From Aestuariivirgaceae bacterium (GTDB lineage: Bacteria > Pseudomonadota > Alphaproteobacteria > Rhizobiales > Aestuariivirgaceae), in assembly GCA_036555325.1 (NCBI GenBank), contig DATBLQ010000038.1, positions 38,623 to 102,622 of the forward strand: a stretch of 64,000 nt of DNA. The letters run 5' to 3'. Each line of letters begins with the position of its first letter. Position 1 is the first letter of the stretch. The notes below the pieces were generated by a model, which saw only the letters and a program-made list of their open reading frames with translations, had not been told where the DNA came from and did not search any database. This document shows, piece after piece, positions 17,349 to 38,760 of this stretch. The translations under genes and the position numbers were made by a program.

Positions 17349-17357
17349 GCGTCCTGC

Positions 17358-18626: not shown

Positions 18627-18629
18627 TCG

Positions 18630-19890: not shown

Positions 19891-19904
19891 CTAGGCAGAT
19901 ATAT

Positions 19905-20762: not shown

Positions 20763-20793
20763 GAACAGATCATCGGTTGGCTATCCTCGACCC

Positions 20794-22647: not shown

Positions 22648-22785
22648 GACATGCCCACCCGCCTGCAGGTTGCGTCTTATTCTTCCAGGAAAATCACCGG
22701 GCGCAAGCACTCCGGTGGCATTTGGCAACTGGCTACGCTACTTTCCTGTGTCCAAGTTTACAATTTTAGATTTCATCATAAACGT

Positions 22786-23055: not shown

Positions 23056-23919
23056 CTAGCTTGTGGCCCTGCCGTTCCTGACATATCCATCGAGCCAGGG
23101 GGTGCGGTAGCCGTCGCTCCGCCAGAGCACGGGAAAATAGCTCTCCTCCATTTCGACAGACCCCATTTTCTTGTAGCGGCTGTAGATATAGCCGACATGA
23201 GTGGGATGGAACCGGGCGTCAGAAGAAATGCAATGCGCGATGACTGCACGGCGAGGCTTGTCGCCCCTGTTGTCACGTGATCCGTGCCATACCCGGCCGT
23301 GATGAAAAACCGCAGATCCGGCCTTTATCTGGATTGGCACGATCTCGTACTTCGTCGCGCTGGCAGCTTCTGCCGCGGGATAGAGGTCGCTCAAGGGATC
23401 GTCGGGTGCATGAAATTGCTTGATGGGCGGGGCGATCGGCCACAGGTGCGAGCCCTGCACATATTCAATGGTCCCCTGGTGGGCCTTGGTATCGTCGAGC
23501 GTGATCCAACAGGTGAGCATTTCCGGAGGTTCAAGCCATTTGTTGTAGCTGTCATCCTGATGAAAGCCCAAGGGCCGCGCACCTGGCGGCTTCCAGATGA
23601 TGTTGTCCTGACCGAGGCGAGCACCCGGCCAGCTGCGAAGTTTGGCCGCCGCTTCGCCAATGTCGGCGCGCAGGGCTATCGAAGCGATGGTGAGATCGGA
23701 CTTCCACGCGTTGCAGATCTGGCGAGTCAGATCCTCGCGGTCGCGGCCCATCCTCCAGTTCCACTCGTCGGGATAAAGGCCAGTCTCAAACTTGCCGGAA
23801 AACAGCGGCTCGAAGCAGTTGCGGGCAGCTTCGACCGTCGAGGCGTCGAGGACGTTGGCGACGGTAACAAATCCATTGCGCTGAAACTCGCCAATCTGGT
23901 CTTCCGTGAGGGAGATCAT
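23056..23919 (-). CDS. Fe(II)/2-oxoglutarate dioxygenase, phytanoyl-CoA dioxygenase (PhyH) family
   Basis: Facial-triad contexts LGFHQDDSY (HxD) and VFHHGRVWHGSRDN. ATG 23919 directly abuts the stop of the upstream EamA gene. Confidence 0.85.
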   Translation of the reverse strand: MISLTEDQIGEFQRNGFVTVANVLDASTVEAARNCFEPLFSGKFETGLYPDEWNWRMGRDREDLTRQICNAWKSDLTIASIALRADIGEAAAKLRSWPGARLGQDNIIWKPPGARPLGFHQDDSYNKWLEPPEMLTCWITLDDTKAHQGTIEYVQGSHLWPIAPPIKQFHAPDDPLSDLYPAAEAASATKYEIVPIQIKAGSAVFHHGRVWHGSRDNRGDKPRRAVIAHCISSDARFHPTHVGYIYSRYKKMGSVEMEESYFPVLWRSDGYRTPWLDGYVRNGRATS

Positions 23920-24782
23920 GCAGTTGCCTGTTCTAGCAGGGTTAGCGCTGCGACGCCGGCAAAAGTTAAAACTATGCCGACCCACCTCAGCGGCGCAACA
24001 CGCTCGCCAAGAAACAGCCAGGCGAGAAGTATTGCAATAACTCCGGCCGCCGATGCCGTGACGATCGCGAGCTCGGGCTGAGGGGTATGGCCGCCGAGAT
24101 TGAGCATTGAAAGGGCAAGCACGTCGAGCCCGCCCATCAGGAGTAGAAATGGCAGCCAGACTGATGGAAAGTGCAAGGGCCTCTCAGCCGCCAACAGAAC
24201 GAGCGCCACGATCGCTGCGCTGCCGCCAATGCGAGACAGCCAAGTTGCGGGAATAGCGCCGTAGATGGTGGCTGCATACTGGCCGATGAAGTTTCCTATG
24301 GCAAAGGCGAAATGCGACAACAGCGCGAAGCCAATGGCGCGAGTGGAGTTGTGAGACGCGAGCTTCTGCTCCTGACCGGTCTTCGCAACCACCACAACTC
24401 CCGCAATCACCAGTGCTGCGCAAAGGATTTGCCACACAGTCGGCGGTCGGCCTGCAAGTGCGCCAAAAATGAGGGACGTAGCGGGGTAAGACATGACGAT
24501 GGGAAGGGCAAGGGAGACAGAGCCGCTGGTCATGGCCGCAAACAACCAAATAGTGGCGACTGCCAACAGGACCCCCGATAAAAGCGGTAACCACATCTGA
24601 GCGGTGGATGCTGAAGGGAAAGTGCCGGCAATCGCGATCCACAGGCTGAGGAGAAACAGCCCAAAAACCGTAACCGCGGCGGCGGTCTTAAGCGCACCAA
24701 TGCGGGAACTCGCCTGCGCTCCGATGACATCATGAACCCCCCAGGCCATCGCGGCGATAAGTCCAAGCAAACCGGGGTTCAT
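23916..24782 (-). CDS. EamA/DMT-family transporter
   Basis: 288 aa, about 10 hydrophobic helices in two EamA-like halves. Confidence 0.85.
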   Translation of the reverse strand: MNPGLLGLIAAMAWGVHDVIGAQASSRIGALKTAAAVTVFGLFLLSLWIAIAGTFPSASTAQMWLPLLSGVLLAVATIWLFAAMTSGSVSLALPIVMSYPATSLIFGALAGRPPTVWQILCAALVIAGVVVVAKTGQEQKLASHNSTRAIGFALLSHFAFAIGNFIGQYAATIYGAIPATWLSRIGGSAAIVALVLLAAERPLHFPSVWLPFLLLMGGLDVLALSMLNLGGHTPQPELAIVTASAAGVIAILLAWLFLGERVAPLRWVGIVLTFAGVAALTLLEQATA

Positions 24783-24821: not shown

Positions 24822-25568
24822 TCAGGAGTCTTCAGCGCCGAGGAGATCCTGGCGCGCAGTTTCCAGATGTTTCGTGATGCGATCGACGGCAGCCGCCACA
24901 TCGCGGTTGCGGAGGGCGTGATAGATAGCGCGATGCTGCTCATTGTAGGAGCGGATTTTCGCGGGGGACAGAATGACCCGTTTCATTCGCTCCCATTGCG
25001 CTTGAGAACGGACATCGTTGATCTCCTGATAGATGTGCAGGATGAGCGGATTGCGCGAACAGCGGGCAAGCTGAAGGTGAAATTCCGAATCCCAACGGGT
25101 GAACCTGTCCTGGTCGGTCGATGCCGCTTCCAGCTGTTCGAGACAGCTCTCAATGCTGTCGAGGTCCTTTTGGGTCGCATGAATTGTTGCAAGCCTGGTC
25201 ATGTAGGGCTCAACGCCCAGCCGCGTTTCAATAAGCTGAAGCGGGCTGATGAGATCTGCGACATCCCCTGCAGTCGACTGCAGAGGGCCGGCGAAATTGA
25301 CGAATGTGCCGCTGCCGACGCGGCGAACGACAAGCCCCTTCTGTTCGAGCTGATCGAGAGCCTTCCTTATCGTTGAGCGTGCAGTGCCGAGGGCCACGGC
25401 AAGCTGCCGCTCCGGCGGCAGCTGATCCCCATCGGCAAAGACGCCACTCTCAATGGCGTGCCGCAAACGTGCAATGATGGCGTTGGCGCTCTTGGCAGGC
25501 ACGAAACCCAACGCTTCGGCATCGCCGCTATTGCCGAGCTGCTCCTCCAAGGCTTCCTTCACATCCAT
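24822..25568 (-). CDS. GntR-family regulator (FadR/FCD subfamily)
   Basis: wHTH GDQLPPERQLAVALGTARSTIRKALDQLEQKGLVVRRVGSGTFV plus an all-helical FCD domain. ATG 25568 gives MDVKEALEE. Confidence 0.9.
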   Translation of the reverse strand: MDVKEALEEQLGNSGDAEALGFVPAKSANAIIARLRHAIESGVFADGDQLPPERQLAVALGTARSTIRKALDQLEQKGLVVRRVGSGTFVNFAGPLQSTAGDVADLISPLQLIETRLGVEPYMTRLATIHATQKDLDSIESCLEQLEAASTDQDRFTRWDSEFHLQLARCSRNPLILHIYQEINDVRSQAQWERMKRVILSPAKIRSYNEQHRAIYHALRNRDVAAAVDRITKHLETARQDLLGAEDS

Positions 25569-25585
25569 GGCATACCTTTGGACTT

Positions 25586-25615
25586 GAATTGGTTTGAAAT
25601 GGGAAAGAATTGGTT
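25586..25615. promoter_or_regulatory. Direct repeat GAATTGGTT x2 (21-bp phasing) in the GntR / flavoprotein divergent spacer
   Basis: GAATTGGTT at 25586-25594 and 25607-25615, i.e. two helical turns apart and 18-47 bp upstream of the GntR start. Confidence 0.3.
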
Positions 25616-25745
25616 GCAATCGGTACGAAAAACGTCGCATTATGCGCCCACTATCCGGGCAGCCGTCAAGCGTTTCAGCCGGACGCACACAGGCAAAGTG
25701 CCGAAGAGCACGCTCGCCCGCCGCGAAGGCAGAGGAAGGTCAGCC

Positions 25746-27092
25746 ATGGCTGCTCCTGCAGGTGTGAAGTACGCGATCATCGGCGCGGGCATTCATGGAC
25801 TGAGCACCGCCTATCATTTGGCGCGGGAGCTGAAATCACGGGGCAAAGGCTCAGGGGCCGACATCCTAGTGGTCGACAAGACGGGGATTGCGGCTGGAGC
25901 CTCGGGAATTGCGTGCGGTGTCGTGCGGAACAACTATTTCCAGCCGGCGATGCGCGAGCTCATGGCGCATTCGGTCGAGGTGTGGGAAAGCGACCCCAAG
26001 GCCTACAGCTACCATCCGGTGGGCTACATGCAGATTTCCCCAGAAGTCATGCACGAAGGGTGTGCTTCGATTTATCAGCAGCAAAGATCCATCGGCTATC
26101 CTTCCACCTTCGTCGAAGGCGAAAAAGACTCGATGCGCTACATGAAGGGGCTGTTCGACGATTGGCAGGCGCAGGGCATCACATCGGTCCTGCATGAGAA
26201 AAAGGGCGGCTACGCGAATAACACTGCATCTATCCACGGTCTTGCGGCGAAGGCCGAGAGGGAAGGCGTGCAGATCACCGCCGGGATCGAGGTAGAGGCG
26301 TTCGAGTTCGGCGGTAACAGTCGTGCTGTGACTGCGCTTCTGACCAACCAGGGCCGCATCGCCTGCGATTATGTGGTGGTCGGGGTCGGCCCCTGGGTCA
26401 ACAGGTTGTGGAACCTGCTCGAGCTGCCGAAGTCAATCTCAATAAAGGGGCGCGACGGGACAGTGCATAGCGGCGTTCGCATGTGGAAATACTGGTGTCT
26501 CGAGGAGGGTACGCTCGGCGTCGATCCCGGTATGCACAAGACGAACGACGGGAAAATGCCGCCCGTCATTCACGTCGACACGGATGCGCCGCTCTATTCC
26601 GATGTCGACGGGAGCCTGATCACCGACACGCTTTGGGGTCTTTATTACAAGCCGGATTTCAATTTCGGCGGGGTGCAAGGGGGTTCATCGCCTTATGTCG
26701 TCGAAGAGGATCCGGATGAAGTTGCGGTCGACCCCTATGGTCCCGACAGTCCGGACTTCATCGTCGGCGACGATTTCATTCGAAACTGGTGCTCGATGCT
26801 TGCTCATTGCCAAAAGCGATTCGAGGGTAAAATCAGCGCCTACAAGCGCGATGAAAGATCGGGCGGCCTCGGCTGCTTCACGCCGGACAGTTTTCCCGTG
26901 TTCGACGAATTCCGGGACAATGTGTTCATCATAGCGGATTCAAATCACGGCTATAAAATGCTCGGTGTCGGCAAGCTGGTCGCGCAGGAACTGGTCGGCG
27001 AGAAATCGCGCCTTCTTGAGCCCTTCAGATTCTCCCGCTTCGCGGAAGGGAAGCTGCATCCGGTTTCCAAGAGCCCGTTTCCTTGGAGTTGA
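25746..27092 (+). CDS. FAD-dependent oxidoreductase, DAO family (sarcosine-oxidase-beta-like)
   Basis: AGAGGAAGG precedes ATG 25746. Motif KYAIIGAGIHGLSTAYHLA and a DAO-type body, 448 aa. The track start at 25458 overlaps the divergent GntR gene. Confidence 0.85.
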   Translation: MAAPAGVKYAIIGAGIHGLSTAYHLARELKSRGKGSGADILVVDKTGIAAGASGIACGVVRNNYFQPAMRELMAHSVEVWESDPKAYSYHPVGYMQISPEVMHEGCASIYQQQRSIGYPSTFVEGEKDSMRYMKGLFDDWQAQGITSVLHEKKGGYANNTASIHGLAAKAEREGVQITAGIEVEAFEFGGNSRAVTALLTNQGRIACDYVVVGVGPWVNRLWNLLELPKSISIKGRDGTVHSGVRMWKYWCLEEGTLGVDPGMHKTNDGKMPPVIHVDTDAPLYSDVDGSLITDTLWGLYYKPDFNFGGVQGGSSPYVVEEDPDEVAVDPYGPDSPDFIVGDDFIRNWCSMLAHCQKRFEGKISAYKRDERSGGLGCFTPDSFPVFDEFRDNVFIIADSNHGYKMLGVGKLVAQELVGEKSRLLEPFRFSRFAEGKLHPVSKSPFPWS

Positions 27093-27186
27093 ACCGGAAA
27101 GGGGAGGGTTGTCTAGGTTGGTTCGGGGTTGGTAGCATCTCAGGTACCGCGAGCAAGAAAGAACAATCAAATTTTAGGGAGAGCAT

Positions 27187-28662
27187 ATGTCCACCGACCT
27201 AGAGAAATTCACCAGCACGCCCGGCCGCGACGATCTCATCAAACAGGTGCGTAAGAAGATCGATTCGCTCGGCATCGAATATCTGTACCTGCAATTCATT
27301 TCAGTAACCGGCCGGATCATGGGCAAGGGCATTCCCGCCGAACACTGGGAGAATGTCGCCAACGGTGGATTCCAGCTCGTGTACGGCGCGACCATGAATC
27401 TCTTTCTCAATCGCCACGGAGAGTACATGGGCTATGGCCCGGAAGCGGCGGAACTGGTGGGTATCCCTGAGCCCGAGACCTTTATGCAGCTTCCCTGGGA
27501 CAAGCGCGTGGCTCGCATGTGGTGCACGCTTTTCCGCAACCGCGAGGAGCGTGAAAATCCTGGAGGATATCTTACCGCCGACTGTCGCGGCAATCTTCGC
27601 CGCATTCACGACGAATTCGAACGCACCCACGGGCTTCGCATGCGCCACGGCACGGAGCCGGAAATGATGTGGCTGAGGAAAGGAGACGATGGCAAGGCAA
27701 AGGGCGGCTATTCCAATCCCTACTGCTATCACATAGATCAGTTCGAAAGCCTGAGACCAGTCTACATGCGCGTCATCGAGTATGGGCGCAAGATGGGGCT
27801 GGACATGATCCAAGGAGATCATGAGGATTCACCCGGGCAGCTAGAATTGAATTTCAACTTTGACGATGCGCTGAAGACAGCCGACCGCCTTTCAACCTAC
27901 CGGCAGATCTGCGCGCAAGTGGCACGCGAGTTCAATATCATCGCGTGTTTCATGTGCAAGCCCTTCATGGGAGTTTCGGCGAACGGCTGCCACCATAACA
28001 TCTCGCTGTGGGCGGAAGGGAAGGATGAGTTCAAGCCCCTGGGAAACGATCCCAAGAATCTTCCGGGCCTTGAGCACAACTACATGTATCTGCGCGGAGG
28101 AAAGAATACGTTTCTGCCGGAAGGCAAGGACGTGCAGATGCCGGGGAAGATCGGCCTCTACACCATCGGCGGCATCGTCAAGCATCTCGCTGGATTGACC
28201 GCCATCGGCTGCTCCACGGTGAATTCCTACCGTCGGCTATGGGATACCGGTTTCTGGGCTCCGGTGTTTGCCGACTGGGGATACCAAAATCGGACGACGG
28301 GCTTGCGCTTGTCGGCGCCGGGCAGATTTGAGTATCGCGCGGTCGATTCGATGGTGAATCCGCACCTCATGGCTGCGGGGATCCTGAAAGCGGCGGATGA
28401 CGGCATCAAGAACAAGATCGATCCGGGGAAGCCCGAGGAACGCAACATCTACGTTGCCATGGAAGCAGGCAAGCAAGTGAAGAAGCTGCCCATGACGCTG
28501 GGTGATGCGCTCGAGGCCCTTAAAAAGGACGAGGTCATCAAATCGGCGCTGCCGGGGGAAATGTACCGGCTGTATGATGAATATAAGCGTGATGAATGGG
28601 AACGGTTCCTTCACACCGCGACCGAGTGGGACATCAAGATGTACATGGATTGCTTGCCGTAA
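27187..28662 (+). CDS. Glutamine-synthetase-family protein (gamma-glutamyl-amide synthetase-like)
   Basis: GS catalytic-domain motifs CHHNISLW, NSYRRLWDTGFWAP and NRTTGLRLSAPGRFEYRAVDSMVNPHL. 491 aa. Confidence 0.85.
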   Translation: MSTDLEKFTSTPGRDDLIKQVRKKIDSLGIEYLYLQFISVTGRIMGKGIPAEHWENVANGGFQLVYGATMNLFLNRHGEYMGYGPEAAELVGIPEPETFMQLPWDKRVARMWCTLFRNREERENPGGYLTADCRGNLRRIHDEFERTHGLRMRHGTEPEMMWLRKGDDGKAKGGYSNPYCYHIDQFESLRPVYMRVIEYGRKMGLDMIQGDHEDSPGQLELNFNFDDALKTADRLSTYRQICAQVAREFNIIACFMCKPFMGVSANGCHHNISLWAEGKDEFKPLGNDPKNLPGLEHNYMYLRGGKNTFLPEGKDVQMPGKIGLYTIGGIVKHLAGLTAIGCSTVNSYRRLWDTGFWAPVFADWGYQNRTTGLRLSAPGRFEYRAVDSMVNPHLMAAGILKAADDGIKNKIDPGKPEERNIYVAMEAGKQVKKLPMTLGDALEALKKDEVIKSALPGEMYRLYDEYKRDEWERFLHTATEWDIKMYMDCLP

Positions 28663-28680
28663 GCAAAAAGGAGATACGCA

Positions 28681-29616
28681 ATGTGTGGCATTGCAGGGCT
28701 GATTCACCGCGACGGCATCGGTAACATAGGCGCCGAAATGACCGCGATGCTCCAGTCGCTCAAACATCGAGGTCCCGATTCGACCGGTTATGCGATTTAC
28801 GGAACGCCGGGACGCAACGAGTTCGTGATGCGGTTCAAGGTCGCTGAACAGGAGGACACGAAGAAGGGCTTTGAAATTCACGAAGAGATCAAGCGTCGCC
28901 GGACAACTGTCGAAGATCGGCTGAAGCAGCTTGGGGTGACCGTCATCGATCGAGACGAGGTGACCGAATATGCCTTTCGATATCGCATTCAATACGACGG
29001 CGAGATGAAGAAACTTGCCGATTATGTGGAGGATGTAAAAGGCACGGAAATCTTGTCGATGGGCAACGCGCTGGAGCTCATCAAAGATCTCGGAGATGCG
29101 AAGTTAGTTTCATCGCAATACAAACTTGACGGATTCAAGGGAACGCACGGCATCGGCCATACGCGGATGGCAACCGAATCGGATGTCGACATTCGCTCGG
29201 CCCACCCCTATTGGGCCTACCCCTATAACGACATTGCAGTGGTGCACAACGGCCAGCTGACCAACTACTGGCAGATGAGACGCGAGTTCGAGCGCCGCGG
29301 ACACCGCTTCATGTCGAACTGCGACAGCGAACTTCTGGCTGTCTATACCGCGTATAATCTCGAGCACGGCGCCACGCTGGAGGAGTCGCTCAAACAGTCG
29401 GTGCGGGAGATCGACGGAGTGTTCACATACCTAATCGCCACCAAGGATGCCCTTGGCATGGCAAAGGACGCCATGGCCGCCAAACCGATGGTGCTCTACG
29501 AGAGCGACAACCTCGTTGCGCTTGCTTCCGAAGAAGTGGCCATACGCGCGGTCATCCCGCACGAAATCGAAACCTGGGACCCTTACGATGAAGAGGTTCG
29601 CGTATGGCGGGCGTAA
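28681..29616 (+). CDS. Class-II glutamine amidotransferase (GlxB / MgsA-like)
   Basis: N-terminal nucleophile MCGIAGL plus HTRMATES and an Ntn-type body. Confidence 0.9.
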   Translation: MCGIAGLIHRDGIGNIGAEMTAMLQSLKHRGPDSTGYAIYGTPGRNEFVMRFKVAEQEDTKKGFEIHEEIKRRRTTVEDRLKQLGVTVIDRDEVTEYAFRYRIQYDGEMKKLADYVEDVKGTEILSMGNALELIKDLGDAKLVSSQYKLDGFKGTHGIGHTRMATESDVDIRSAHPYWAYPYNDIAVVHNGQLTNYWQMRREFERRGHRFMSNCDSELLAVYTAYNLEHGATLEESLKQSVREIDGVFTYLIATKDALGMAKDAMAAKPMVLYESDNLVALASEEVAIRAVIPHEIETWDPYDEEVRVWRA

Positions 29617-30461
29617 CACCGGCTTCGAAAGACCATCTCTCGCATGAGATGGGAATGCATACGGAAAGCCTTCGCGGCCGCACTCAGCAGCGCTTTTTCG
29701 ACGTTTCTGAAGAGAATGTCGGCTTCGGCTATCCGGATGCACTCGACGTCGATTTTAACAAGCGCGCCGAGATCGACGCGGAGGCGCTGAATACGCGCCA
29801 GATCAACAACGAGCTCCGCGATCTCATGAAACGGGGTTATGGCACGATCGTGCTAAAGAATCCCGGAGCCAAACATTCGCTGGCCGTCGGCATACTGAAC
29901 CGCCTCAATCTCTATATCGAAGGCAGTTGCGGCTATTTCGCCTGCGGCCTCCTGGATGGCCCGAATGTCCGCATCAAGGGCCGAGTGGGTTGGGCGTGCG
30001 GTGAAAATATGCTGGCTGGGACAATCGTCATCGAGAAGAACGCCGGTTCCCAGTTCGGTGCAGCGCTGCGCGGGGGAGATCTGGTTTGCAAAGGTTCGGT
30101 CGGTTCACGTACCGGCATCGATCAAAAGGGAGGTACGATCATCGTCGGCGGCGATACGGGTTCTTTCTCGGGCTTCATGATGCAGCGCGGCCGCATGGTC
30201 ATCTGCGGGAACGCGGGCAAGAATCTTGGCGACAGCATGTATGACGGGACCATCTACATCGGCGGGGAACCACGAAGCCTGGGAGTGGACGCCGTATGGT
30301 CGGAGATGACCGACCTTGATCGGCAGTGGTTGTCGCGCAAACTGCGTATGTACGAAATGTTGCCCGACCAGGGACTTATGCATTTCCGCAAGATCGTGGC
30401 CGGCAAGCAGCTGTGGAATTATGACAATCTCGAACCAAGCGAAAAGAAACTCGTGCTGTAG
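29604..30461 (+). CDS. GXGXG-motif protein (glutamate synthase alpha C-terminal-domain-like, GlxC / MgsB-like)
   Basis: Repeated beta-helix G-x-G pattern (GSCGYFACGLLDGPNVRIKGRVGWACGENMLAGTIVIEKNAGSQFGAALRGGDLVCKGSVGSRTG). It overlaps the upstream gene by 13 nt. Confidence 0.85.
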   Translation: MAGVTPASKDHLSHEMGMHTESLRGRTQQRFFDVSEENVGFGYPDALDVDFNKRAEIDAEALNTRQINNELRDLMKRGYGTIVLKNPGAKHSLAVGILNRLNLYIEGSCGYFACGLLDGPNVRIKGRVGWACGENMLAGTIVIEKNAGSQFGAALRGGDLVCKGSVGSRTGIDQKGGTIIVGGDTGSFSGFMMQRGRMVICGNAGKNLGDSMYDGTIYIGGEPRSLGVDAVWSEMTDLDRQWLSRKLRMYEMLPDQGLMHFRKIVAGKQLWNYDNLEPSEKKLVL

Positions 30462-30503
30462 CCCAGACCGCTTGCGCAGCGAATGAGCAAAAAGGGGTAA
30501 TCG

Positions 30504-31976
30504 ATGGCAAGAAGACCGGCAAAGAAGGTCGCCAGGAGCAAACGGGCGCGGAAAACGGCCGTCACCACTAAGAAGTCCCGAACGGACAGCCTGCTGTTTG
30601 GCCGCACGGCCGCGGGTCTCGCGGCCCTTTCACGCGCTCCGGCCGAAAGCAAAAAGTATGTCCTCGGCAGCTCACATATCTTCACGCCCGAGGTCATGAA
30701 CGACATCCACATAAAGTCGGAGCTCGGCCGCTACCGCATGCGCGGTTTCTCGCTGTTCAAGAAGATTCCTCACTGGGACGACCTGACTTTTCTTCCCGGC
30801 ACGCTCACGCGGTTCGTTATCGAGGGATACCGCGAGAAATGCGACACGGCCACCATCATCGGTCCGCGGGCGAAACGACCGATGGTGCTCGACATTCCCG
30901 TTTACGTGACGGGCATGAGCTTCGGCGCGCTGTCATATGAGGCGAAGATCGCGCTGGCACGCGGAGCGACAATGGCAGGCTCGGCGACGTGTTCCGGCGA
31001 AGGGGGAATGATTCCAGACGAACGGCGTTATTCGGAGAAGTGGTTCTACCAGTGCATCCAGTCGCGGTATGGATTCAATCCACATCACTTGCGGCTGGCC
31101 GACGCGTGCGAATTCTTCATCGGCCAAGGATGCAAGGTCGGGCTGGGCGGTCATCTGATGGGCCAAAAGGTTACCGATCAAGTGGCTGAAATGCGCTCAT
31201 TGCCCGCAGGGATAGATCAGCGTTCGCCGGCCCGCCATCCGGATTGGCTCGGACCCGATGATCTGGCGCTCAAGATCCAGGAAGTTCGCGAGGCGACAAA
31301 CTGGGAAATTCCGATTCAGCTGAAGCTCGGCGCCGCGCGCGTCTACGACGATGTTCGCATGGCGGTGAAATGCGATCCGGACTCGATTTACATCGATGGA
31401 ATGGAAGGCGGCACCGGCGCTGGTCCACATATTGCCACCGAAGATACCGGAGTGCCCGGAATCGCAGCCATCCGCGAGGCCAGGCGGGCGATCGACGAGC
31501 TGGGCAAGAAAGACCAGATTTCGCTCGTCTATGCCGGCGGAATTCGCAATGGCGGAGATGTCGCCAAGGCGCTGGCACTGGGGGCCGATGCCATTGCCAT
31601 CGGGCATTCGGTGTTGATGGCGCTCAACTGCAACAAGCATCTACCGGGAATAACCGACTATCCGGCTGAGATCGGCGTGGAGGCCGGATACTGCTACCAC
31701 TGCCACACCGGCCGCTGTCCGGTCGGCATAACCACACAGGACCCGGTTCTGCGCCAACGACTCGATCCCGACAAGGGGGCGGAGCGTGTCTATAATTTTC
31801 TCCATACGCTGACCATGGAGGCGCAAATGCTCGCCCGCGCCTGCGGGAAGACGAACATACATTCCCTTGAACCGGAAGATCTTGCGGCCCTTACCATGGA
31901 AGCTTCCGCGATGTGCAAAATTCCCCTCGCCGGCACAAACTACACGGTCGGTGTTGAGGACTATCACAAGTACTGA
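30504..31976 (+). CDS. FMN-binding glutamate-synthase-family protein (GlxD / MgsC-like) with a Lys/Arg-rich N-terminal extension
   Basis: GltS FMN-domain motifs (IGQGCKVGLGGHL, DGMEGGTGAGP, YAGGIRNGGDVAKALALGADAIAIG) and a CxxC cluster YCYHCHTGRCPVGI. AAAGGGG precedes ATG 30504. Confidence 0.9.
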   Translation: MARRPAKKVARSKRARKTAVTTKKSRTDSLLFGRTAAGLAALSRAPAESKKYVLGSSHIFTPEVMNDIHIKSELGRYRMRGFSLFKKIPHWDDLTFLPGTLTRFVIEGYREKCDTATIIGPRAKRPMVLDIPVYVTGMSFGALSYEAKIALARGATMAGSATCSGEGGMIPDERRYSEKWFYQCIQSRYGFNPHHLRLADACEFFIGQGCKVGLGGHLMGQKVTDQVAEMRSLPAGIDQRSPARHPDWLGPDDLALKIQEVREATNWEIPIQLKLGAARVYDDVRMAVKCDPDSIYIDGMEGGTGAGPHIATEDTGVPGIAAIREARRAIDELGKKDQISLVYAGGIRNGGDVAKALALGADAIAIGHSVLMALNCNKHLPGITDYPAEIGVEAGYCYHCHTGRCPVGITTQDPVLRQRLDPDKGAERVYNFLHTLTMEAQMLARACGKTNIHSLEPEDLAALTMEASAMCKIPLAGTNYTVGVEDYHKY

Positions 31977-31991
31977 TCCCAGGAGGACGTC

Positions 31992-32405
31992 ATGGCGGGT
32001 ACGAGTTACAAAGGGTCGGACATCCGAGACGTCGACCAGTTCATCAACGACCGCGCAGGCCTCGGATCAGCGCGCGAAAAGGAGATCGGCCAGCACATCG
32101 GCTATCGATATGACGTCAATCTGCTGCCCGACTATTCTCGCCTCACGCCGTTTCTGTCGGACTATATGGAATTCATGGGCTGGGACGATCTAAACTGGCT
32201 TGAGGACGTCCATATGGGCTACGAGGAGGGCCTGCCCGCCATCTTCGACCGGAATATCAATGGCTGGGTTCGAATCCCGCAGGGCATGAAGCTCCCTGAC
32301 AATCAGCAAGACCGGGATATGCTTGCCCGTGAGCTGCTCATCAAGTTCCAGATGAGTCCAAACCACCCGATGGTGCAACTCAACCGGGCTTACAGAAAAA
32401 TCTGA
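31992..32405 (+). CDS. Hypothetical protein (137 aa), last gene of the GS/Mgs-like operon
   Basis: AGGAGGA lies 5 nt before the ATG, 15 nt after the upstream stop. I recognise no motif. Confidence 0.7.
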   Translation: MAGTSYKGSDIRDVDQFINDRAGLGSAREKEIGQHIGYRYDVNLLPDYSRLTPFLSDYMEFMGWDDLNWLEDVHMGYEEGLPAIFDRNINGWVRIPQGMKLPDNQQDRDMLARELLIKFQMSPNHPMVQLNRAYRKI

Positions 32406-32831: not shown

Positions 32832-33467
32832 TCAATCTGGACGGCAATCTTCTGGGGGCATGGGGTCGGCGTAAGCATTCTTCCAATCGGGCCTGAAGCC
32901 AAGGATAACCGCATCGTTCGGTACATCGGGGCTGAAGATCCGGTTATGCCAAAGCGTCGCCTGGTGAACCGGCTCTCTTGCGTGAAGCCGCCGGATTCGG
33001 CAGAACATCGTAAAGCGCTGGGAATATTGCTCGAAATCGAGGAGGCATTCCCGAAGCCTCACCATCAATTCGGCAACCTTGGAGCCGGCCCCGAAAAGGG
33101 CGGTCATCTCGTCGCTGAAGGAGTCGGGGTGCTGAAAATATTCCGCACCTAGATATTTCACACCCTCTTCATACGCCCGCCGATGCTCGAAGGTGCGTTC
33201 TAACTGAAACTTGAGATAGGCGGTGCTCTCTTTAGGTTTCTTGGGAACAATCAGCACAGTCATTGCCTGCATCAGTGTATCGCCTGAACGCTCCAGGGCG
33301 CGCGGCCGCATGCCGGGCGTTGGCGCGCCGCCGTGGCTGCGAAGGCTGATCTGCCGAATGCGGCACTGCCAGGCCAGAAAATAGGATCGAAGATTGCTGT
33401 TGGACAGGTTTCGCAAGCTCGAACTCCCGAACGGAATGTTTTGACAAATTGGCCTGCCATTGGCCAA
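32832..33467 (-). CDS. Hypothetical protein (up to 211 aa), start uncertain
   Basis: Long ORF on the same strand as the GYD gene and divergent from the ACAD-like gene. The track start is TTG without an SD, and internal ATGs exist (MRPRA, MQAM, MTVL). I recognise no motif. Confidence 0.5.
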   Translation of the reverse strand: MANGRPICQNIPFGSSSLRNLSNSNLRSYFLAWQCRIRQISLRSHGGAPTPGMRPRALERSGDTLMQAMTVLIVPKKPKESTAYLKFQLERTFEHRRAYEEGVKYLGAEYFQHPDSFSDEMTALFGAGSKVAELMVRLRECLLDFEQYSQRFTMFCRIRRLHAREPVHQATLWHNRIFSPDVPNDAVILGFRPDWKNAYADPMPPEDCRPD

Positions 33468-34927: not shown

Positions 34928-35038
34928 CTCCAGAATGGCAGGGAAACCCTTTTCATGAGCAAATCTCTAAGGTCAGCCCGGTAATCAAGAAAATTATCAG
35001 TTGTGTTCAGCCCTCCAGGACTCGTGCAATAACTCTGC

Positions 35039-36230: not shown

Positions 36231-36262
36231 ATGGCCGGACCTCGATCCGGCCATCTTCTTTT
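36231..36262 (+). terminator. Rho-independent terminator
   Basis: ATGGCCGGA-cctcga-TCCGGCCAT followed by CTTCTTTT. A second perfect 9-bp hairpin, GTCATGCGC...GCGCATGAC, lies at 36186-36215. Confidence 0.7.
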
Positions 36263-38631
36263 CAGCTGCGGACCCGCTTCTTTTCCGGATCGTAGTGCGG
36301 GAATTTGCTGACGCGGCCAGGCAGGCGCTTCTGATGACCATCAAGCTTGCCTACTTCAACCTCGGTCCCAGGGGTTGAATGAATCAAGTCGATCCGTGCG
36401 AGAGCAATGTTCTTGCCGAGGATGGGCGAGCGGACGCTGCTCGTTACGGTTCCAATCTGTGCGCGGCCGACATGGATGCAATCGCCGCGGCCCACGGCTT
36501 CATTTGAATCGATCTCGAGCCCGACAAGTATGTTTTGCGGATGCTCCTTGCGGCGCAGGAGGGCAGCGCGACCGATAAAATCATCGGGCTTGGTCTTCAG
36601 CGGCACCGTGAAGCCAATACCGGCTTCAAATGGATCGGTTTGATCGGTGAACTCAGAATTGGCGAAAACAAGACCAGCCTCGATGCGGACCATATCGAGC
36701 GCTTCCAGGCCCATGGGCTTTAGACCGTGTTTTTCTCCTGCGGACCATACGGCGTCGAAGAGCTGAACCGCATCCCTGGGATGGCAGAAAATTTCGTACC
36801 CCAGTTCACCGGTATAGCCGGTGCGCGAGACGACAAGTGGTGCTCCCTCGAAATGACCGATCCTGCCGATGGCAAAGCGAAACCAGTCGAGTTCGCCGAT
36901 CGAAGGCTGAGCCGGAGACGTCCAGATGATTTCCTTTAGGATGTCGCGGCTCTTCGGTCCCTGCACCGCAATGTTGTGCAGCTGATCGGTCGAGGAGCGA
37001 ACCCAGGCCCTGAACCCCATCTTCTCGGCTTGTTGCCTCAGCCACAGGCCGCTGTAGTCGATGCCGCCAATCCAGCGAAAGTTGTTTTGCGCCAATCGGA
37101 ACACCGTACCGTCATCGATCATTCCGCCGTGCTCGTAACACATTGCCGTATATGCCACCTGCCCGGTGGACAGCTTGCGCATGTCGCGTGTCACGCAGTA
37201 CTGCATGAGCGGTTCCGCATCCGGCCCGGTGACTTCAAATTTGCGCAATGGCGAAAGATCCATAACCACTGCCCGTTCTCGGCATGCCCAATATTCCTCG
37301 ATTGGTCCTTCATTGTTGAACCGTTGCGGCAGCCAATAGCCTCGATAGTTGGTGAAGTTTCTGGTCAACCGTGAGAACCGCGGGTGGAACGCAGTTTCCC
37401 GGGTAAGCTCTGCTTCTGCATCAGGAGTCATTCGATAGGCCACTGCTCGTGAGAACTTTTCCTCCGCCCCATAGGTGCGCACCTGAATGTCGGTGGGGTT
37501 CCAGCCATTGGCGGCATCGATGTCGTCGGGACAGGCTGAGGAAACACATACCAGATCCGTCAGCGCCCGCATCAAAATGTAGTCGCCGGGTCGCGACCAC
37601 GGTTCATCGAGATAAAGCTGGTTATTCTGGTCGATGTTCGTGTTGTAGAAATAGTTGAGTGCTTCCCAGCCTTTGCGCGGAGCGACACCGAAGGGCAGAA
37701 GAGCCTTGTTGAAATTCTCCGAGCAATTGACATGGCCGGGATAGCCCATGTCGTCGTAGTAGCGCGGGTTGCAGGCGGTAGCGAAGGCGTCGTGCCGCCC
37801 GCACGTATCTTGAACGATCTCAACCAGCGGTTCGAACTCCCGGTCGAAGGCTTTCGAAGGCAGGCCGGGCGTTGGATAACTGCGACCGGTCAGCGTTCGC
37901 GTGATCGTCCAGTCGAGCGAGAGATCCTTCCGCTTATCGAGCTTGCGTACCGCGAAAGCCTGAAAGTCCGAACATTGACGGCCGGAAACGTCGATGACCT
38001 GGATGTACTCGCCGGGCTTGACCACATAGGCGACTGCAGTTGATGCGTTGATGCGGATGTCCTGCAGGGGATCGCGCAACGGTTCCGGCAAAACCTCTTC
38101 GCCTGGGTTGCGGATGCTGCGTCGCTCGATGAAAAGCTCGATCGGTGTAGAGGTTTCCTGCGAGGCCGGGTCCATGGGTGAGCCGGGAGCCGCAACGATG
38201 ACAATGCCGTCACGCGCGACGCGAAACCTTGCCGTGTCACCGGCTGCGGAAGCAGCGCCGAAAATTCGGATCGACTCTGCAGCGGCAAGATCGATGCCGC
38301 GTCGTTTGAGCGCATGCTTGGTGCGCTCGGCACTTTCGCTATTGTTGCCGATAACAGACTTGAGGCCTTCCGCACGGTTGGTTGCCCTTTCGCCCAACAC
38401 CGTGGCGTCGAATCGGCCGCTCTTGTCCGCGTGCGCGATCTCGCAGGGTTGTTGTCCCTCGACATCCCTGACAACGAGTGTATCGCCAGCTTCCACGGCA
38501 ACGACAATCGAACCGCCGCCGGAAATTCGATACCGCTCCGTTCCCGGCGGCAGGGTCGGAATGCCGGGCCGCAAGATGACGCTTGGCCGAGCCTGCAAGG
38601 ACCCAGGAAAGGGGCGTGGCGTATCGAGCAT
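36262..38631 (-). CDS. Fusion protein: two DUF1989-like modules plus a GcvT-type aminomethyltransferase (folate-binding) domain
   Basis: The C-terminal ~400 aa carry GcvT motifs (VVMDLSPLRKFEVTGPDA, SRTGYTGELGYEIF, ALDMVRIEAG). The N-terminal ~400 aa contain two copies of the DUF1989-type strand motif (VAVEAGDTLVVRDVEGQQPCEI and YVVKPGEYIQVIDVSGRQCSDFQAF). ATG 38631 gives MLDTPRP. Confidence 0.85.
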   Translation of the reverse strand: MLDTPRPFPGSLQARPSVILRPGIPTLPPGTERYRISGGGSIVVAVEAGDTLVVRDVEGQQPCEIAHADKSGRFDATVLGERATNRAEGLKSVIGNNSESAERTKHALKRRGIDLAAAESIRIFGAASAAGDTARFRVARDGIVIVAAPGSPMDPASQETSTPIELFIERRSIRNPGEEVLPEPLRDPLQDIRINASTAVAYVVKPGEYIQVIDVSGRQCSDFQAFAVRKLDKRKDLSLDWTITRTLTGRSYPTPGLPSKAFDREFEPLVEIVQDTCGRHDAFATACNPRYYDDMGYPGHVNCSENFNKALLPFGVAPRKGWEALNYFYNTNIDQNNQLYLDEPWSRPGDYILMRALTDLVCVSSACPDDIDAANGWNPTDIQVRTYGAEEKFSRAVAYRMTPDAEAELTRETAFHPRFSRLTRNFTNYRGYWLPQRFNNEGPIEEYWACRERAVVMDLSPLRKFEVTGPDAEPLMQYCVTRDMRKLSTGQVAYTAMCYEHGGMIDDGTVFRLAQNNFRWIGGIDYSGLWLRQQAEKMGFRAWVRSSTDQLHNIAVQGPKSRDILKEIIWTSPAQPSIGELDWFRFAIGRIGHFEGAPLVVSRTGYTGELGYEIFCHPRDAVQLFDAVWSAGEKHGLKPMGLEALDMVRIEAGLVFANSEFTDQTDPFEAGIGFTVPLKTKPDDFIGRAALLRRKEHPQNILVGLEIDSNEAVGRGDCIHVGRAQIGTVTSSVRSPILGKNIALARIDLIHSTPGTEVEVGKLDGHQKRLPGRVSKFPHYDPEKKRVRS

Positions 38632-38760
38632 TAGTGGCTCCCCAATAGGGCAACATAAGCTGGATTGGCGCAACGTAAGGGAGGGTTACCAACAAATCAA
38701 GGAAATGGTCCCCTTTGGAATCTCGTGCTATTTGACTGCTCCTTAGGGACTTGCGAGCAG

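What the first reader, a model, noticed from the sequence alone, without database searches (positions are those of the whole stretch)
25746..32405. Variant N-methylglutamate-type cluster: GS-like + MgsABC-like genes with a single DAO-family flavoprotein instead of the four-subunit dehydrogenase
Seen: six co-directional genes, namely a DAO-family FAD oxidoreductase (448 aa), a GS-family protein (491 aa), an Ntn-type amidotransferase starting MCGI, a GXGXG protein, an FMN glutamate-synthase-like protein, and a 137-aa unknown. They are tightly spaced, with a 13-nt overlap between the second and third Mgs-like genes.

Established: in methylotrophs the methylamine N-methylglutamate pathway uses GmaS, MgsABC and a heterotetrameric sarcosine-oxidase-like MgdABCD.

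Inference: here only a beta-subunit-like flavoprotein is present and the GS-like protein is longer than the size I recall for GmaS. This may be a distinct pathway for methylamine or another primary amine (ethylamine, ethanolamine, other alkylamines) with a single-subunit N-alkylglutamate oxidase.
Basis: partly seen in the sequence, partly recalled or inferred. Interest (0 to 1): 0.65.

Follow-up and report, generated by a model that had tools for sequence, protein, structure and literature searches.

The report
Second-type methylamine glutamate pathway gene cluster
The six genes are real and belong to a widespread, unstudied sister version of the bacterial pathway that attaches methylamine to glutamate; it keeps an iron-sulfur site that the known pathway has lost, carries two proteins of unknown family, and usually sits beside genes for breaking down trimethylamine oxide.

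Summary
Six co-directional genes lie at 25746-32405, with the stated sizes and domains. One correction: the 13-nt overlap joins the amidotransferase and GXGXG genes.

GS-like, Ntn-amidotransferase, GXGXG, FMN subunit and the 137-aa protein form a fixed five-gene core. It is present in 52-53 of 53 related loci with adequate flanks, from at least 599 species. A divergent GntR/FCD regulator accompanies it in 52 of 53.

The flavoprotein is optional (26 of 53). In several loci it sits beside a canonical soxBDAG-type mgdABCD, so the "single flavoprotein instead of Mgd" reading fails as a general rule.

The GS-like protein has GmaS catalytic hallmarks but scores far below the GmaS family cutoff. The FMN subunit keeps the three glutamate-synthase [3Fe-4S] cysteines that canonical MgsC has replaced.

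Frequent partners are a ~190-aa protein with a predicted flavin split-barrel fold, a Nit2/omega-amidase-like hydrolase, Tdm (a true one lies in the window), Tmm, TmoX and Amt. Some genomes carry a canonical gmaS-mgsABC right beside it.

Best reading: a paralogous "type-2", glutamate-synthase-like (reductive) module for methylated amines. Whether the substrate is MMA or DMA is unresolved. I found no literature on it.

The parts
24822..25688 (-). Divergent GntR/FCD-family regulator. The real start is probably the Met at about 25568, giving about 248 aa.
   Evidence: Pfam GntR + FCD. A homolog sits in this position in 52 of 53 loci.
25746..27092 (+). DAO-family flavoprotein (448 aa), distantly SoxB-like. 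An accessory, not a core, component.
   Evidence: PF01266. TIGR01373 soxB 55 bits against a cutoff of 529. A profile search of PDB hits the P. horikoshii proline-dehydrogenase/sarcosine-oxidase beta subunit at 1.7e-19; the stretches that align are profile positions ~3-234 and a weak C-terminal 377-438. Present in 26 of 53 loci. 24% identical to a true SoxB-type subunit over 202 aa, and not PuuB-like.
27187..28662 (+). Type-2 gamma-glutamyl-alkylamide synthetase (GS-like, 491 aa).
   Evidence: Gln-synt_C. GmaS hallmark residues are conserved: QGDHEDxPGQLELN and the flap motif NSYRRLWDTGFWAP, invariant in 83 of 83. Below the TIGR03105 cutoff. Sister to the GmaS clade.
28681..29616 (+). Ntn (class II) amidotransferase subunit, MgsA/GltB-N-like. 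Starts MCGI.
   Evidence: GATase_6/7. Core gene in 53 of 53 loci. The 13-nt overlap with the next gene is conserved.
29604..30461 (+). GXGXG beta-helix subunit, MgsB/GltB-C-like.
   Evidence: PF01493. Core gene in 53 of 53 loci.
30504..31976 (+). FMN (Glu_synthase) subunit that retains the glutamate-synthase [3Fe-4S] cysteines plus a fourth Cys.
   Evidence: PF01645. Its Cys residues align with E. coli GltB C1102, C1108 and C1113; canonical MgsC has D, W, D at those positions. The four-Cys pattern is found in 68 of 68 type-2 copies, against DYWD or DYWC in 5 of 5 canonical copies.
31992..32405 (+). 137-aa orphan protein, an obligate companion of the core.
   Evidence: No Pfam, NCBIfam or PDB match. 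The top 120 homologs listed are nearly all 136-137 aa, and mean column identity across 30 sampled homologs is 87%. No distant relatives among 1.8 billion representatives. AF2 pLDDT 69 and no fold match. Present in 53 of 53 loci.
32832..33467 (-). About 190-aa orphan protein (ORF 211 aa from a TTG start) with a predicted FMN-binding split-barrel-like fold.
   Evidence: No Pfam hit, even at E up to 5 across 37 homologs. AF2 pLDDT 90. Foldseek hits are to PNPOx-like, F420- or flavin-binding split barrels: best E 8.6e-4, probability 1.00, but low TM-scores of 0.3-0.6. Homolog present in 42 of 53 loci.
20785..21639 (+). Nit1/Nit2 (omega-amidase)-like C-N hydrolase. It is displaced about 4 kb upstream here; in most other loci it lies directly after the 137-aa gene.
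   Evidence: CN_hydrolase. Best PDB match is mouse Nit2 at 2.8e-44. Best NCBIfam match is deaminated glutathione amidase, 177 bits against a cutoff of 500. Present in 36 of 53 loci.
36262..38673 (-). Trimethylamine N-oxide demethylase (Tdm), a linked gene that produces DMA and formaldehyde.
   Evidence: NF053776 1244 bits against a cutoff of 1100; domains DUF1989 + GCV_T + GCV_T_C. Tdm lies within 10 kb of the core in 14 of the 83 loci screened, and also in L084 and L085.
23056..24782 (-). PhyH-type Fe/2OG dioxygenase (23056-23985) and EamA transporter (23916-24782), co-directional with the regulator. A lineage-specific accessory.
   Evidence: Pfam. Present in 10-11 of 53 loci, all Hyphomicrobiales-like. 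The PhyH protein's best PDB match is SnoK at 2e-16.

Best explanation
This is a conserved "type-2" counterpart of the gamma-glutamylmethylamide / N-methylglutamate system, and it belongs to methylated-amine (TMAO/TMA-derived) metabolism.

Proposed steps:
1. The GS-like enzyme uses ATP to ligate a small methylated amine to the gamma-carboxyl of glutamate. Monomethylamine is the most likely substrate; dimethylamine is possible.
2. The three-subunit split glutamate-synthase-like enzyme then acts. The Ntn amidotransferase releases the amine from the gamma-glutamyl amide. The amine passes to the FMN subunit, which condenses it with 2-oxoglutarate and reduces the imine to an N-methylated glutamate.
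3. Unlike canonical MgsC, this FMN subunit keeps the glutamate-synthase [3Fe-4S] site. The reaction is therefore expected to draw electrons from an outside donor, as in GOGAT, rather than being the redox-neutral glutamate-dependent exchange of classical NMG synthase. The invariant 137-aa protein, and possibly the ~190-aa split-barrel protein, are proposed as dedicated subunits or electron adaptors.
4. The N-methylated glutamate is demethylated by whichever oxidoreductase the genome has: the SoxB-like flavoprotein here, or MgdABCD or DMGDH-like enzymes elsewhere.
5. The Nit2-like hydrolase salvages N-alkyl-2-oxoglutaramate side products.
6. The GntR/FCD protein regulates the operon.

The net effect would be a GS-GOGAT-like assimilatory route that places methylamine nitrogen directly into new glutamate.

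Shown by computation: gene content, synteny, family placement, conserved residues and genomic associations. Inferred: every catalytic step, the substrate, and the electron donor.
For: - Core synteny is conserved in 52-53 of 53 loci, drawn from at least 599 species of Alpha- and Gammaproteobacteria.
- The GS-like protein keeps the RhGmaS amine-pocket and catalytic residues Q175, D177, E179, E186 and N188. It has Trp in place of the GS flap Glu and lacks the GS Asp50'.
- Its best HMM is the GmaS type, and it branches as sister to GmaS.
- Gene order and domains match MgsABC, and the FMN subunit is about 50% identical to canonical MgsC by tblastn.
- The GltB [3Fe-4S] cysteines are retained in 68 of 68 type-2 copies and replaced in 5 of 5 canonical MgsC copies.
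- The context is methylated-amine metabolism. A true Tdm lies in the window. Tmm, Tdm or TmoX occur within 10 kb in 23 of 53 loci, and any methylated-amine marker in 34 of 53.
- A soxBDAG-type mgd cluster and a TmaR-like AraC regulator are adjacent in L045, L062, L067, L070 and L077.
- Minimal Tdm-Amt-core islands occur in L084 and L085.
- A canonical gmaS-mgsCBA lies directly beside the cluster in L016, L017, L021, L039 and L040. This argues for a non-redundant role.
- The Nit2-like hydrolase fits 2-oxoglutaramate-type amides.
Against: - No biochemical or genetic data exist for any component, and I found no paper on it.
- The electron donor is unidentified, and no GltD-like or ferredoxin gene is conserved nearby.
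- The split-barrel assignment of the ~190-aa protein rests on weak Foldseek scores. The 137-aa protein has no informative model.
- The flavoprotein, hydrolase and split-barrel genes are not universal.
- In 3-4 loci the same GS-like gene is paired with a P450 and a GMC oxidoreductase instead of the GOGAT-like genes. This points to oxidation of the gamma-glutamyl amide itself rather than amine transfer.
- Retained cysteines do not prove that a cluster is bound or that the reaction is reductive.
Confidence: 0.45

Rival explanations
1. A Dmm-independent dimethylamine route. The GS-like enzyme makes gamma-glutamyl-dimethylamide from the DMA released by Tdm. Downstream enzymes then convert it either to N,N-dimethylglutamate (via the GOGAT-like enzyme) or to gamma-glutamylmethylamide plus formaldehyde (via the P450 variant). 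Flavoproteins and Mgd then demethylate the products.
For: - Tight and recurrent linkage to Tdm, including minimal Tdm-Amt-core islands.
- A census of 118 further neighbour ORFs found no Pfam family in more than 3 of them, so DUF3445/DmmC occurs in at most one and is not a recurrent neighbour. dmmDABC is therefore not a recurrent neighbour of the type-2 cluster.
- In canonical Rhodobacteraceae islands, by contrast, dmm lies a few genes from gmaS.
- Side-by-side coexistence with canonical gmaS-mgsABC.
- In L036 the GS-like gene plus a P450 sit next to canonical mgs and mgd genes.
- DMGDH-like DAO-FAO_M-GCV_T genes occur in some islands.
- Many marine genomes have tmm, tdm and "gmaS" but no dmm.
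- RhGmaS can already use DMA, though weakly.
Against: - The amine-pocket residues are the same as in MMA-specific GmaS.
- The frequent neighbour Amt carries ammonium and methylammonium, not DMA (my own knowledge).
- Dmm-less islands also exist with canonical gmaS in SAR11, so absence of dmm is weak evidence.
- No precedent was found for N,N-dimethylglutamate or gamma-glutamyl-dimethylamide metabolism.
- Whole-genome presence of dmm could not be checked.
Confidence: 0.2
2. An ordinary isofunctional duplicate of GmaS/MgsABC. It would use the same redox-neutral N-methylglutamate synthase chemistry with MMA and differ only in affinity or regulation. The cysteines and extra genes would have no mechanistic meaning.
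For: - Same domain set and gene order as the canonical system, with GmaS-like catalytic residues.
- In L045-type islands it occupies the place of gmaS-mgsABC between tmaR/mgd and tmm.
- Extra gmaS/mgsABC copies are reported in some Ruegeria.
Against: - All three GOGAT cluster ligands plus a fourth Cys are strictly retained in 68 of 68 copies.
- The orphan 137-aa partner is obligate and extremely conserved.
- The regulator is of a different type: GntR/FCD here, against AraC-type TmaR for the canonical genes.
Confidence: 0.12
3. One reading: a pathway for another primary amine (ethylamine, ethanolamine or another alkylamine), in which a single-subunit N-alkylglutamate oxidase replaces MgdABCD.
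For: - No mgdABCD in the 64-kb window.
- The GS-like protein has a ~40-aa insertion relative to GmaS and GS.
- The P450/GMC variant loci recall the isopropylamine (Ipu) logic (the comparison rests on my own knowledge).
- Choline/ethanolamine-kinase-like genes occur in 2 loci.
Against: - The flavoprotein is absent from half of the loci, and it co-occurs with adjacent mgdABCD-type genes.
- The recurrent neighbours are C1/methylated-amine genes, not ethanolamine or alkylamine genes.
Confidence: 0.08
4. A true GS/GOGAT-type ammonium or glutamine assimilation system. Two forms are possible. Either GS-like makes glutamine, or gamma-glutamylmethylamide is first demethylated to glutamine. The Fe-S-containing enzyme then makes two glutamates.
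For: - The GOGAT [3Fe-4S] ligands are retained.
- Amt is a frequent neighbour.
- The genes sit in nitrogen-acquisition islands.
Against: - The GS-like protein lacks the GS Asp50' and the flap Glu, and carries the GmaS-type Asp.
- No GltD-like partner is present.
- PRK11750 (GltB) scores 129 bits against a cutoff of 1047.
Confidence: 0.07

Closest known systems
GmaS (gamma-glutamylmethylamide synthetase; NCBIfam TIGR03105; PDB 7CQL RhGmaS and 9QUR)
   Same: GS fold. The amine-pocket and catalytic residues D177, E186, Q175, E179 and N188 are conserved. Trp replaces the GS flap Glu. It is linked to Mgs-like genes and to methylated-amine islands.
   Different: About 31% identity. It scores 296 bits against the 469.6 family cutoff. 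It has a ~40-aa insertion before the flap and is 491 aa against about 435 aa. It forms a separate sister clade, and it coexists with true gmaS in some genomes.
N-methylglutamate synthase MgsABC (glxBCD-type)
   Same: Three separate genes in the same order: Ntn amidotransferase, GXGXG, then FMN/Glu_synthase. The FMN subunit is about 50% identical by tblastn.
   Different: The FMN subunit keeps the three GltB [3Fe-4S] cysteines plus one more, where canonical MgsC has D, W, D. The 137-aa partner is obligate. The A/B genes overlap by 13 nt. The regulator is GntR/FCD rather than AraC-type TmaR.
Glutamate synthase (GOGAT; GltB/GltD or the ferredoxin-dependent form)
   Same: Amidotransferase, FMN and beta-helix modules, and the [3Fe-4S] ligand cysteines at the positions of E. 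coli GltB C1102, C1108 and C1113.
   Different: It is split into three polypeptides. It has no central domain and no GltD. It is very distant from GltB (129 bits against a cutoff of 1047). It is paired with a GmaS-like ligase rather than a GS-like one.
N-methylglutamate dehydrogenase MgdABCD / heterotetrameric sarcosine oxidase SoxBDAG
   Same: The window flavoprotein is a DAO-family enzyme whose closest solved relatives are SoxB-type beta subunits.
   Different: The flavoprotein is only a remote SoxB-type homolog: TIGR01373 scores 55 bits against a cutoff of 529. The window has no alpha, gamma or delta subunits. Real SoxBDAG-type clusters sit next to the flavoprotein in other loci, so it is not their replacement.
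Omega-amidase Nit2 / deaminated-glutathione amidase Nit1, and the orphan activity N-methyl-2-oxoglutaramate hydrolase (EC 3.5.1.36; my own knowledge)
   Same: The associated C-N hydrolase is closest to Nit2 and Nit1, whose substrates are amides of 2-oxoglutarate.
   Different: It falls below every curated cutoff, and its substrate is untested.
Puu (putrescine) and Ipu (isopropylamine) gamma-glutamylation pathways
   Same: The same logic: a GS-like ligase adds a gamma-glutamyl handle, and oxidation then follows. A DAO-family oxidase is present here, a P450 in variant loci, and a class I GATase-type hydrolase in 20 of 53 loci.
   Different: The PuuA HMM scores 217 bits against a cutoff of 650. 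The flavoprotein is not PuuB-like, with 36% identity over 55 aa. The context is C1 metabolism.

Membership tests
GmaS (TIGR03105, type III glutamate-ammonia ligase / gamma-glutamylmethylamide synthetase) | Whole-protein HMM score at or above the curated cutoff of 469.6 bits. | tested here: not met
   296.2 bits. Canonical copies in L017 and L039 score 545-659 bits.
GmaS (TIGR03105, type III glutamate-ammonia ligase / gamma-glutamylmethylamide synthetase) | Catalytic Asp177 and Glu186, and pocket residues Q175, E179 and N188 (RhGmaS numbering). Trp in place of the GS flap Glu. No Asp50'. | tested here: met
   QGDHEDSPGQLELN and GFWAP align to the RhGmaS residues. The features are conserved across 83 type-2 copies. 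The Asp50' position is judged from a less certain part of the alignment.
GmaS (TIGR03105, type III glutamate-ammonia ligase / gamma-glutamylmethylamide synthetase) | ATP-dependent ligation of monomethylamine, preferred over ammonium. | not testable with these tools
   Needs an enzyme assay.
N-methylglutamate synthase MgsABC | Three adjacent genes: Ntn amidotransferase, GXGXG, and FMN/Glu_synthase. | tested here: met
N-methylglutamate synthase MgsABC | An FMN-only enzyme. Canonical MgsC lacks the GOGAT Fe-S ligand cysteines. | tested here: not met
   The pattern is CCCC in 68 of 68 type-2 copies, against DYWD or DYWC in 5 of 5 canonical copies. Three of the Cys residues align to E. coli GltB C1102, C1108 and C1113.
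N-methylglutamate dehydrogenase MgdABCD / SoxBDAG | Four subunits: beta, delta, alpha and gamma. | tested here: not met
   The only candidate in the window is a remote beta-like protein (55 bits against a cutoff of 529). No SoxA, SoxD or SoxG domains occur in the 64-kb window.
Glutamate synthase (GltB/GltD) | GltB equivalog score with a central domain, together with a GltD or ferredoxin partner. | tested here: not met
   PRK11750 scores 129 bits against a cutoff of 1047. No GltD-like gene recurs among the neighbours.
Glutamate synthase (GltB/GltD) | The three [3Fe-4S] ligand cysteines next to the FMN site. | tested here: met
   Alignment with E. coli GltB. Actual cluster binding was not tested.
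TMAO demethylase Tdm (NF053776), for the neighbouring gene at 36262-38673 | Equivalog HMM score at or above 1100 bits, with DUF1989 + GCV_T architecture. | tested here: met
   1244 bits. Pfam domains confirmed.
Puu pathway (PuuA/PuuB) | PuuA equivalog score at or above 650 bits, and a PuuB-like oxidase. | tested here: not met
   217 bits. The flavoprotein matches PuuB at 36% over only 55 aa.
Nit1/Nit2 omega-amidase branch, for the C-N hydrolase at 20785-21639 | Curated equivalog score, or clear nearest-neighbour placement. | tested here: inconclusive
   Best PDB match is mouse Nit2 at 2.8e-44. The NCBIfam deaminated-glutathione amidase models score 177 bits (cutoff 500) and 139 bits (cutoff 355), both below cutoff.

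The most novel reading that the evidence does not exclude
The cluster encodes a previously unknown, Dmm-independent route for dimethylamine. DMA released by Tdm is gamma-glutamylated by the type-2 ligase. It is then processed either by the Fe-S/FMN glutamate-synthase-like complex together with the orphan 137-aa subunit, giving N,N-dimethylglutamate, or by a P450 in variant loci, giving gamma-glutamylmethylamide. The products are then demethylated. This would fill the reported "DMA bottleneck" in marine methylated-amine degradation.
Probability: 0.2. Interest if true: 0.85.

Novelty: new variant of a known kind. Interest (0 to 1): 0.6.

Why it matters
Methylated amines are a sizeable pool of marine and soil organic nitrogen and are precursors of climate-active aerosols. 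Surveys currently count gmaS, mgsABC, mgdABCD and dmmDABC as the whole aerobic pathway.

This work finds a second, widespread module that has no name in curated libraries. It occurs in at least 599 species, and its 137-aa marker protein has at least 8000 90%-identity clusters. It sits inside Tmm/Tdm/TmoX islands.

Its GS-like protein lies near the e-50 cutoff of BLAST-based gmaS surveys (phmmer E about 6e-52 to RhGmaS). It may therefore be either missed or counted as gmaS.

Its retained Fe-S site suggests different chemistry: a GOGAT-like, reductive and assimilatory use of methylamine nitrogen, or possibly DMA catabolism. It also offers two orphan protein families with a clear experimental handle.

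If the DMA reading is right, the proposed genetic bottleneck for DMA turnover would need revising.

Tried and rejected
- **Structure and fold of the 137-aa protein.** The model was only moderate (pLDDT 69) and no Foldseek hit was better than E about 1.7.
- **Remote homologs or fusions of the 137-aa protein.** An exhaustive HMMER search found only one tight family. The apparently longer members are frameshifted assemblies, not fusions.
- **Pfam signal for the ~190-aa protein.** No family was matched by more than one of 37 homologs at E up to 5 (best E 0.053).
- **Plasmid carriage.** There was no tblastn hit for the 137-aa protein in PLSDB.
- **Promoter, terminator and operator signals.** Counts around the operon were at or below shuffled expectation, and there was no inverted repeat in the regulator-operon spacer.
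- **PuuB-like role for the flavoprotein.** Rejected, because only the dinucleotide-binding motif aligns.
- **The transporter next to Tdm as TmoXVW.** Rejected. It is a thiBPQ-like set beside thiamine pyrophosphokinase.
- **dmmDABC in neighbourhoods.** A Pfam census of 118 unassigned neighbour ORFs showed no recurrent family.
- **Literature.** Searches for a second gmaS/mgs type, for Fe-S in NMG synthase, and for dimethylglutamate or gamma-glutamyl-dimethylamide found nothing relevant.

Full report
**Observation**

The six + strand ORFs are present exactly as described:
- DAO-family flavoprotein, 25746-27092, 448 aa.
- GS-like protein, 27187-28662, 491 aa.
- Ntn amidotransferase starting MCGI, 28681-29616.
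- GXGXG protein, 29604-30461.
- Glu_synthase/FMN protein, 30504-31976.
- A 137-aa protein with no family, 31992-32405.

Pfam and NCBIfam confirm the domains. Every NCBIfam hit is far below its curated cutoff.

One detail needs correcting. The 13-nt overlap (29604-29616) joins the amidotransferase and GXGXG genes. The same overlap is conserved in distant relatives. A GntR/FCD regulator is divergently transcribed upstream (24822-25688).

**How widespread and how fixed**

The GS-like protein has thousands of close homologs, annotated only as "glutamine synthetase (family protein)".

A scan of one genome per species found at least 599 species with a relative. The best 80 are 72-92% identical. They include:
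- Hyphomicrobiales: Aestuariivirgaceae, Methyloceanibacter, Aurantimonas and Taklimakanibacter.
- Rhodobacterales: Roseovarius and Pseudaestuariivita.
- SAR116 and Kiloniellaceae.
- Gammaproteobacteria: Granulosicoccaceae, Arenicellales and Immundisolibacterales.

By identity, the window is closest to Aestuariivirgaceae-like MAGs (L001 and L061, 92%).

I mapped the window proteins onto these loci. In the 53 loci with enough flank, the counts were:

| Gene | Loci (of 53) |
|---|---|
| GS-like, amidotransferase, GXGXG, FMN, 137-aa protein | 52-53 |
| GntR/FCD regulator | 52 |
| Homolog of the window ORF 32832-33467 | 42 |
| C-N hydrolase (homolog of 20785-21639) | 36 |
| Flavoprotein | 26 |
| Class I GATase | 20 |
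| Amt | 16 |
| Tmm | 15 |
| TmoX | 14 |
| Tdm | 10 |

**What the surroundings say**

The gene at 36262-38673 (- strand) is a genuine TMAO demethylase (NF053776, 1244 bits against a cutoff of 1100).

In other lineages the cluster is embedded in methylated-amine islands:
- L081: core, hydrolase, ~205-aa protein, FMO (Tmm), Tdm, then a DAO-FAO_M-GCV_T protein.
- L045, L062, L067 (SAR116), L070 and L077: SoxG-SoxA-SoxD-SoxB-type genes, an AraC (TmaR-like) regulator or a DMGDH-like gene, class I GATase, GntR, optional flavoprotein, core, hydrolase, ~190-aa protein, Tmm, then TmoX/V/W. The L045 SoxB scores 668 bits against a cutoff of 529.
- L084 and L085: minimal Tdm-Amt-core islands.
- L016, L017, L021, L039 and L040: a canonical gmaS (TIGR03105, 659 bits) with mgsC/B/A lies immediately beside the cluster.

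Tmm, Tdm or TmoX occur within 10 kb in 23 of 53 loci. Any methylated-amine marker occurs in 34 of 53.

For comparison, the characterised R. pomeroyi island holds gmaS-mgsABC, dmmDABC, AraC-type tmaR and mgdABCD.

dmmDABC is not a recurrent neighbour. A Pfam census of 118 remaining neighbour ORFs found no family present more than three times.

The rest of the window holds no mgdABCD, canonical gmaS or tmm.

**The ligase**

The GS-like protein is about equally distant from archaeal GS and from the solved GmaS structures (E about 1e-52).

Reading its alignment to RhGmaS against the published structure-function work (PMC7948447) gives three results:
- All proposed amine-pocket and catalytic residues are kept. 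The window motif QGDHEDSPGQLELN corresponds to Q175, D177, E179, E186 and N188.
- The GS flap glutamate is replaced by Trp (GFWAP, matching RhGmaS W300).
- There is no GS-type Asp50'. This last point rests on a less certain part of the alignment.

These features are invariant or nearly so across 83 type-2 copies.

A crude NJ tree places the type-2 clade as sister to the TIGR03105 clade, with E. coli PuuA and GlnA outside. Identity to canonical GmaS is about 31%, and a ~40-aa insertion precedes the flap.

I therefore treat it as an amine ligase that works like GmaS but is not a member of the curated family (296 bits against a cutoff of 469.6).

**The glutamate-synthase-like enzyme**

By tblastn, the FMN subunit is about 50% identical to the canonical MgsC copies found in the same loci.

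At the positions of E. coli GltB C1102, C1108 and C1113, the type-2 protein has Cys, Cys, Cys, plus a fourth Cys nearby. To my knowledge these positions are the [3Fe-4S] ligands of glutamate synthases. Canonical MgsC has Asp, Trp, Asp there.

The pattern is CCCC in 68 of 68 type-2 copies and DYWD or DYWC in 5 of 5 canonical copies.

This is the clearest mechanistic difference. The type-2 enzyme probably holds an Fe-S cluster and exchanges electrons with a partner, as GOGAT does. Classical NMG synthase, by contrast, is an FMN-only, redox-neutral enzyme (my own knowledge of the older enzymology).

**The orphans and accessories**

*The 137-aa protein.* It has no Pfam, NCBIfam or PDB relative.
- The 120 best homologs listed are nearly all 136-137 aa.
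- Mean column identity across 30 sampled homologs is 87%.
- It has no distant relatives among 1.8 billion representatives.
- Its AF2 model is mediocre and matches nothing.

Such conservation in an obligate neighbour suggests a tightly bound subunit.

*The ~190-aa protein* (ORF 32832-33467). It is also family-less. It folds confidently (pLDDT 90), and its Foldseek hits are consistently to FMN- or F420-binding split barrels. The scores are weak, with a best E of 8.6e-4 and TM-scores of 0.3-0.6. It is a candidate redox adaptor, no more.

*The C-N hydrolase.* It is closest to Nit2 omega-amidase (2.8e-44) and to deaminated-glutathione amidase. Those enzymes cleave amides of 2-oxoglutarate. This fits salvage of N-alkyl-2-oxoglutaramate formed from gamma-glutamyl amides.

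*The flavoprotein.* It is a remote SoxB-type or proline-dehydrogenase-beta-type DAO enzyme. It aligns to solved relatives only over residues ~3-234 and weakly over 377-438. It is not PuuB-like.

**Variant loci**

In L036 and L080, and partly in L028 and L065, the same type-2 ligase occurs without the GOGAT-like genes. It is followed instead by a cytochrome P450, a GMC oxidoreductase and an unknown protein.

In L036 these genes sit next to canonical mgsA/B and SoxBDAG-type genes. In L080 they sit next to Amt, Tmm and Tdm.

This shows that the ligase product can be handed to different downstream modules. It also recalls pathways in which gamma-glutamylation comes before oxidation of the N-alkyl group.

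**Interpretation**

The best-supported reading is a paralogous, uncharacterised "type-2" module of methylated-amine metabolism. It comprises:
- a GmaS-like ligase;
- a split, Fe-S-retaining glutamate-synthase-like enzyme with a dedicated 137-aa subunit;
- helpers: a Nit2-like hydrolase, a split-barrel protein and an optional flavoprotein;
- a GntR/FCD regulator.

I favour MMA as the substrate. I also favour a reductive, GOGAT-like formation of N-methylglutamate from 2-oxoglutarate. That would make the route assimilatory and would explain why it coexists with the canonical, ammonia-releasing system.

The main rival is a Dmm-independent DMA route. Several observations make it attractive:
- the Tdm linkage;
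- the absence of dmm from all neighbourhoods;
- coexistence with canonical gmaS/mgs;
- the P450 variant;
- the many tmm-positive, tdm-positive, dmm-negative marine genomes listed by Lidbury et al..

Three points weaken it:
- the amine pocket is unchanged from MMA-specific GmaS;
- Amt is a frequent neighbour;
- SAR11 shows the same dmm gap with a canonical gmaS.

The "single flavoprotein replaces MgdABCD" idea does not hold across the family.

**Novelty**

No curated model names these proteins. I also found no paper describing a second gmaS/mgs type, an Fe-S-containing NMG synthase or the orphan partners.

I rate it a new variant of a known kind. It is of real interest to people working on marine and soil C1 and nitrogen cycling.

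Noticed in passing
L036:9998-15488; L080:10001-15784; L028:14569-15597: The same type-2 GS-like ligase (73-78% identical, identical flap motif) occurs without the GOGAT-like genes and the 137-aa gene. It is followed instead by a cytochrome P450, a GMC oxidoreductase and a conserved unknown protein. In L036 these genes sit beside canonical mgsA/B and SoxBDAG-type genes. In L080 they sit beside Amt, Tmm, Tdm and a choline/ethanolamine-kinase-like gene.
   Followed up: partly
window 23056-24782 (- strand): A PhyH-type Fe/2OG dioxygenase and an EamA transporter are co-directional with the GntR/FCD regulator. The trio recurs in about 10 Hyphomicrobiales-like loci. In L006 and L010 the PhyH gene lies directly next to the regulator, and the flavoprotein is absent. 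It could be an alternative oxidative step.
   Followed up: partly
window 15888-20762: A phosphonate-catabolism-like set: aldehyde dehydrogenase, type I phosphodiesterase (PhnA-like), class V aminotransferase (PhnW-like) and a divergent LysR regulator. It also lies next to the cluster in L002, L004, L007 and L008. This is probably only phylogenetic linkage.
   Followed up: no
window 33527-35662: An acyl-CoA dehydrogenase-like gene (Rv1679/FadE16-like, below cutoff) and a TetR regulator lie between the ~190-aa gene and Tdm. The arrangement is found only in the closest relatives (L001, L002), so it is probably not part of the system.
   Followed up: partly
L039:2996-4447 and 6224-7579; L040 likewise: Methyloceanibacter-like loci carry two further TIGR03105-scoring GS-like paralogs (545 and 553 bits, about 40% identical to canonical GmaS). 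These come in addition to the canonical gmaS and the type-2 gene, giving four GmaS-related ligases within about 20 kb.
   Followed up: partly
window 30504-30620: The FMN-subunit ORF begins with a Lys/Arg-rich stretch of about 35 aa (MARRPAKKVARSKRARK...) that is absent from homologs. The true start codon is uncertain.
   Followed up: no
window 21655-22728 (- strand): A 357-aa ORF with no Pfam family, conserved only in L001 and L061. It lies between the C-N hydrolase and the PhyH gene.
   Followed up: no
window 39240-43404: A thiBPQ-like ABC transporter sits next to thiamine pyrophosphokinase. At first glance it could be mistaken for a TMAO transporter beside Tdm.
   Followed up: partly
window 54013-55983: A 656-aa ORF with no Pfam hit follows a sugar-type ABC transporter operon (49383-53999).
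   Followed up: no
window 60635-63160; 6073-6148: A full-length LigD (phosphoesterase, ligase and primase-polymerase domains) lies near the end of the window. The window's single tRNA, tRNA-Arg(TCG), lies on the - strand at 6073-6148.
   Followed up: no
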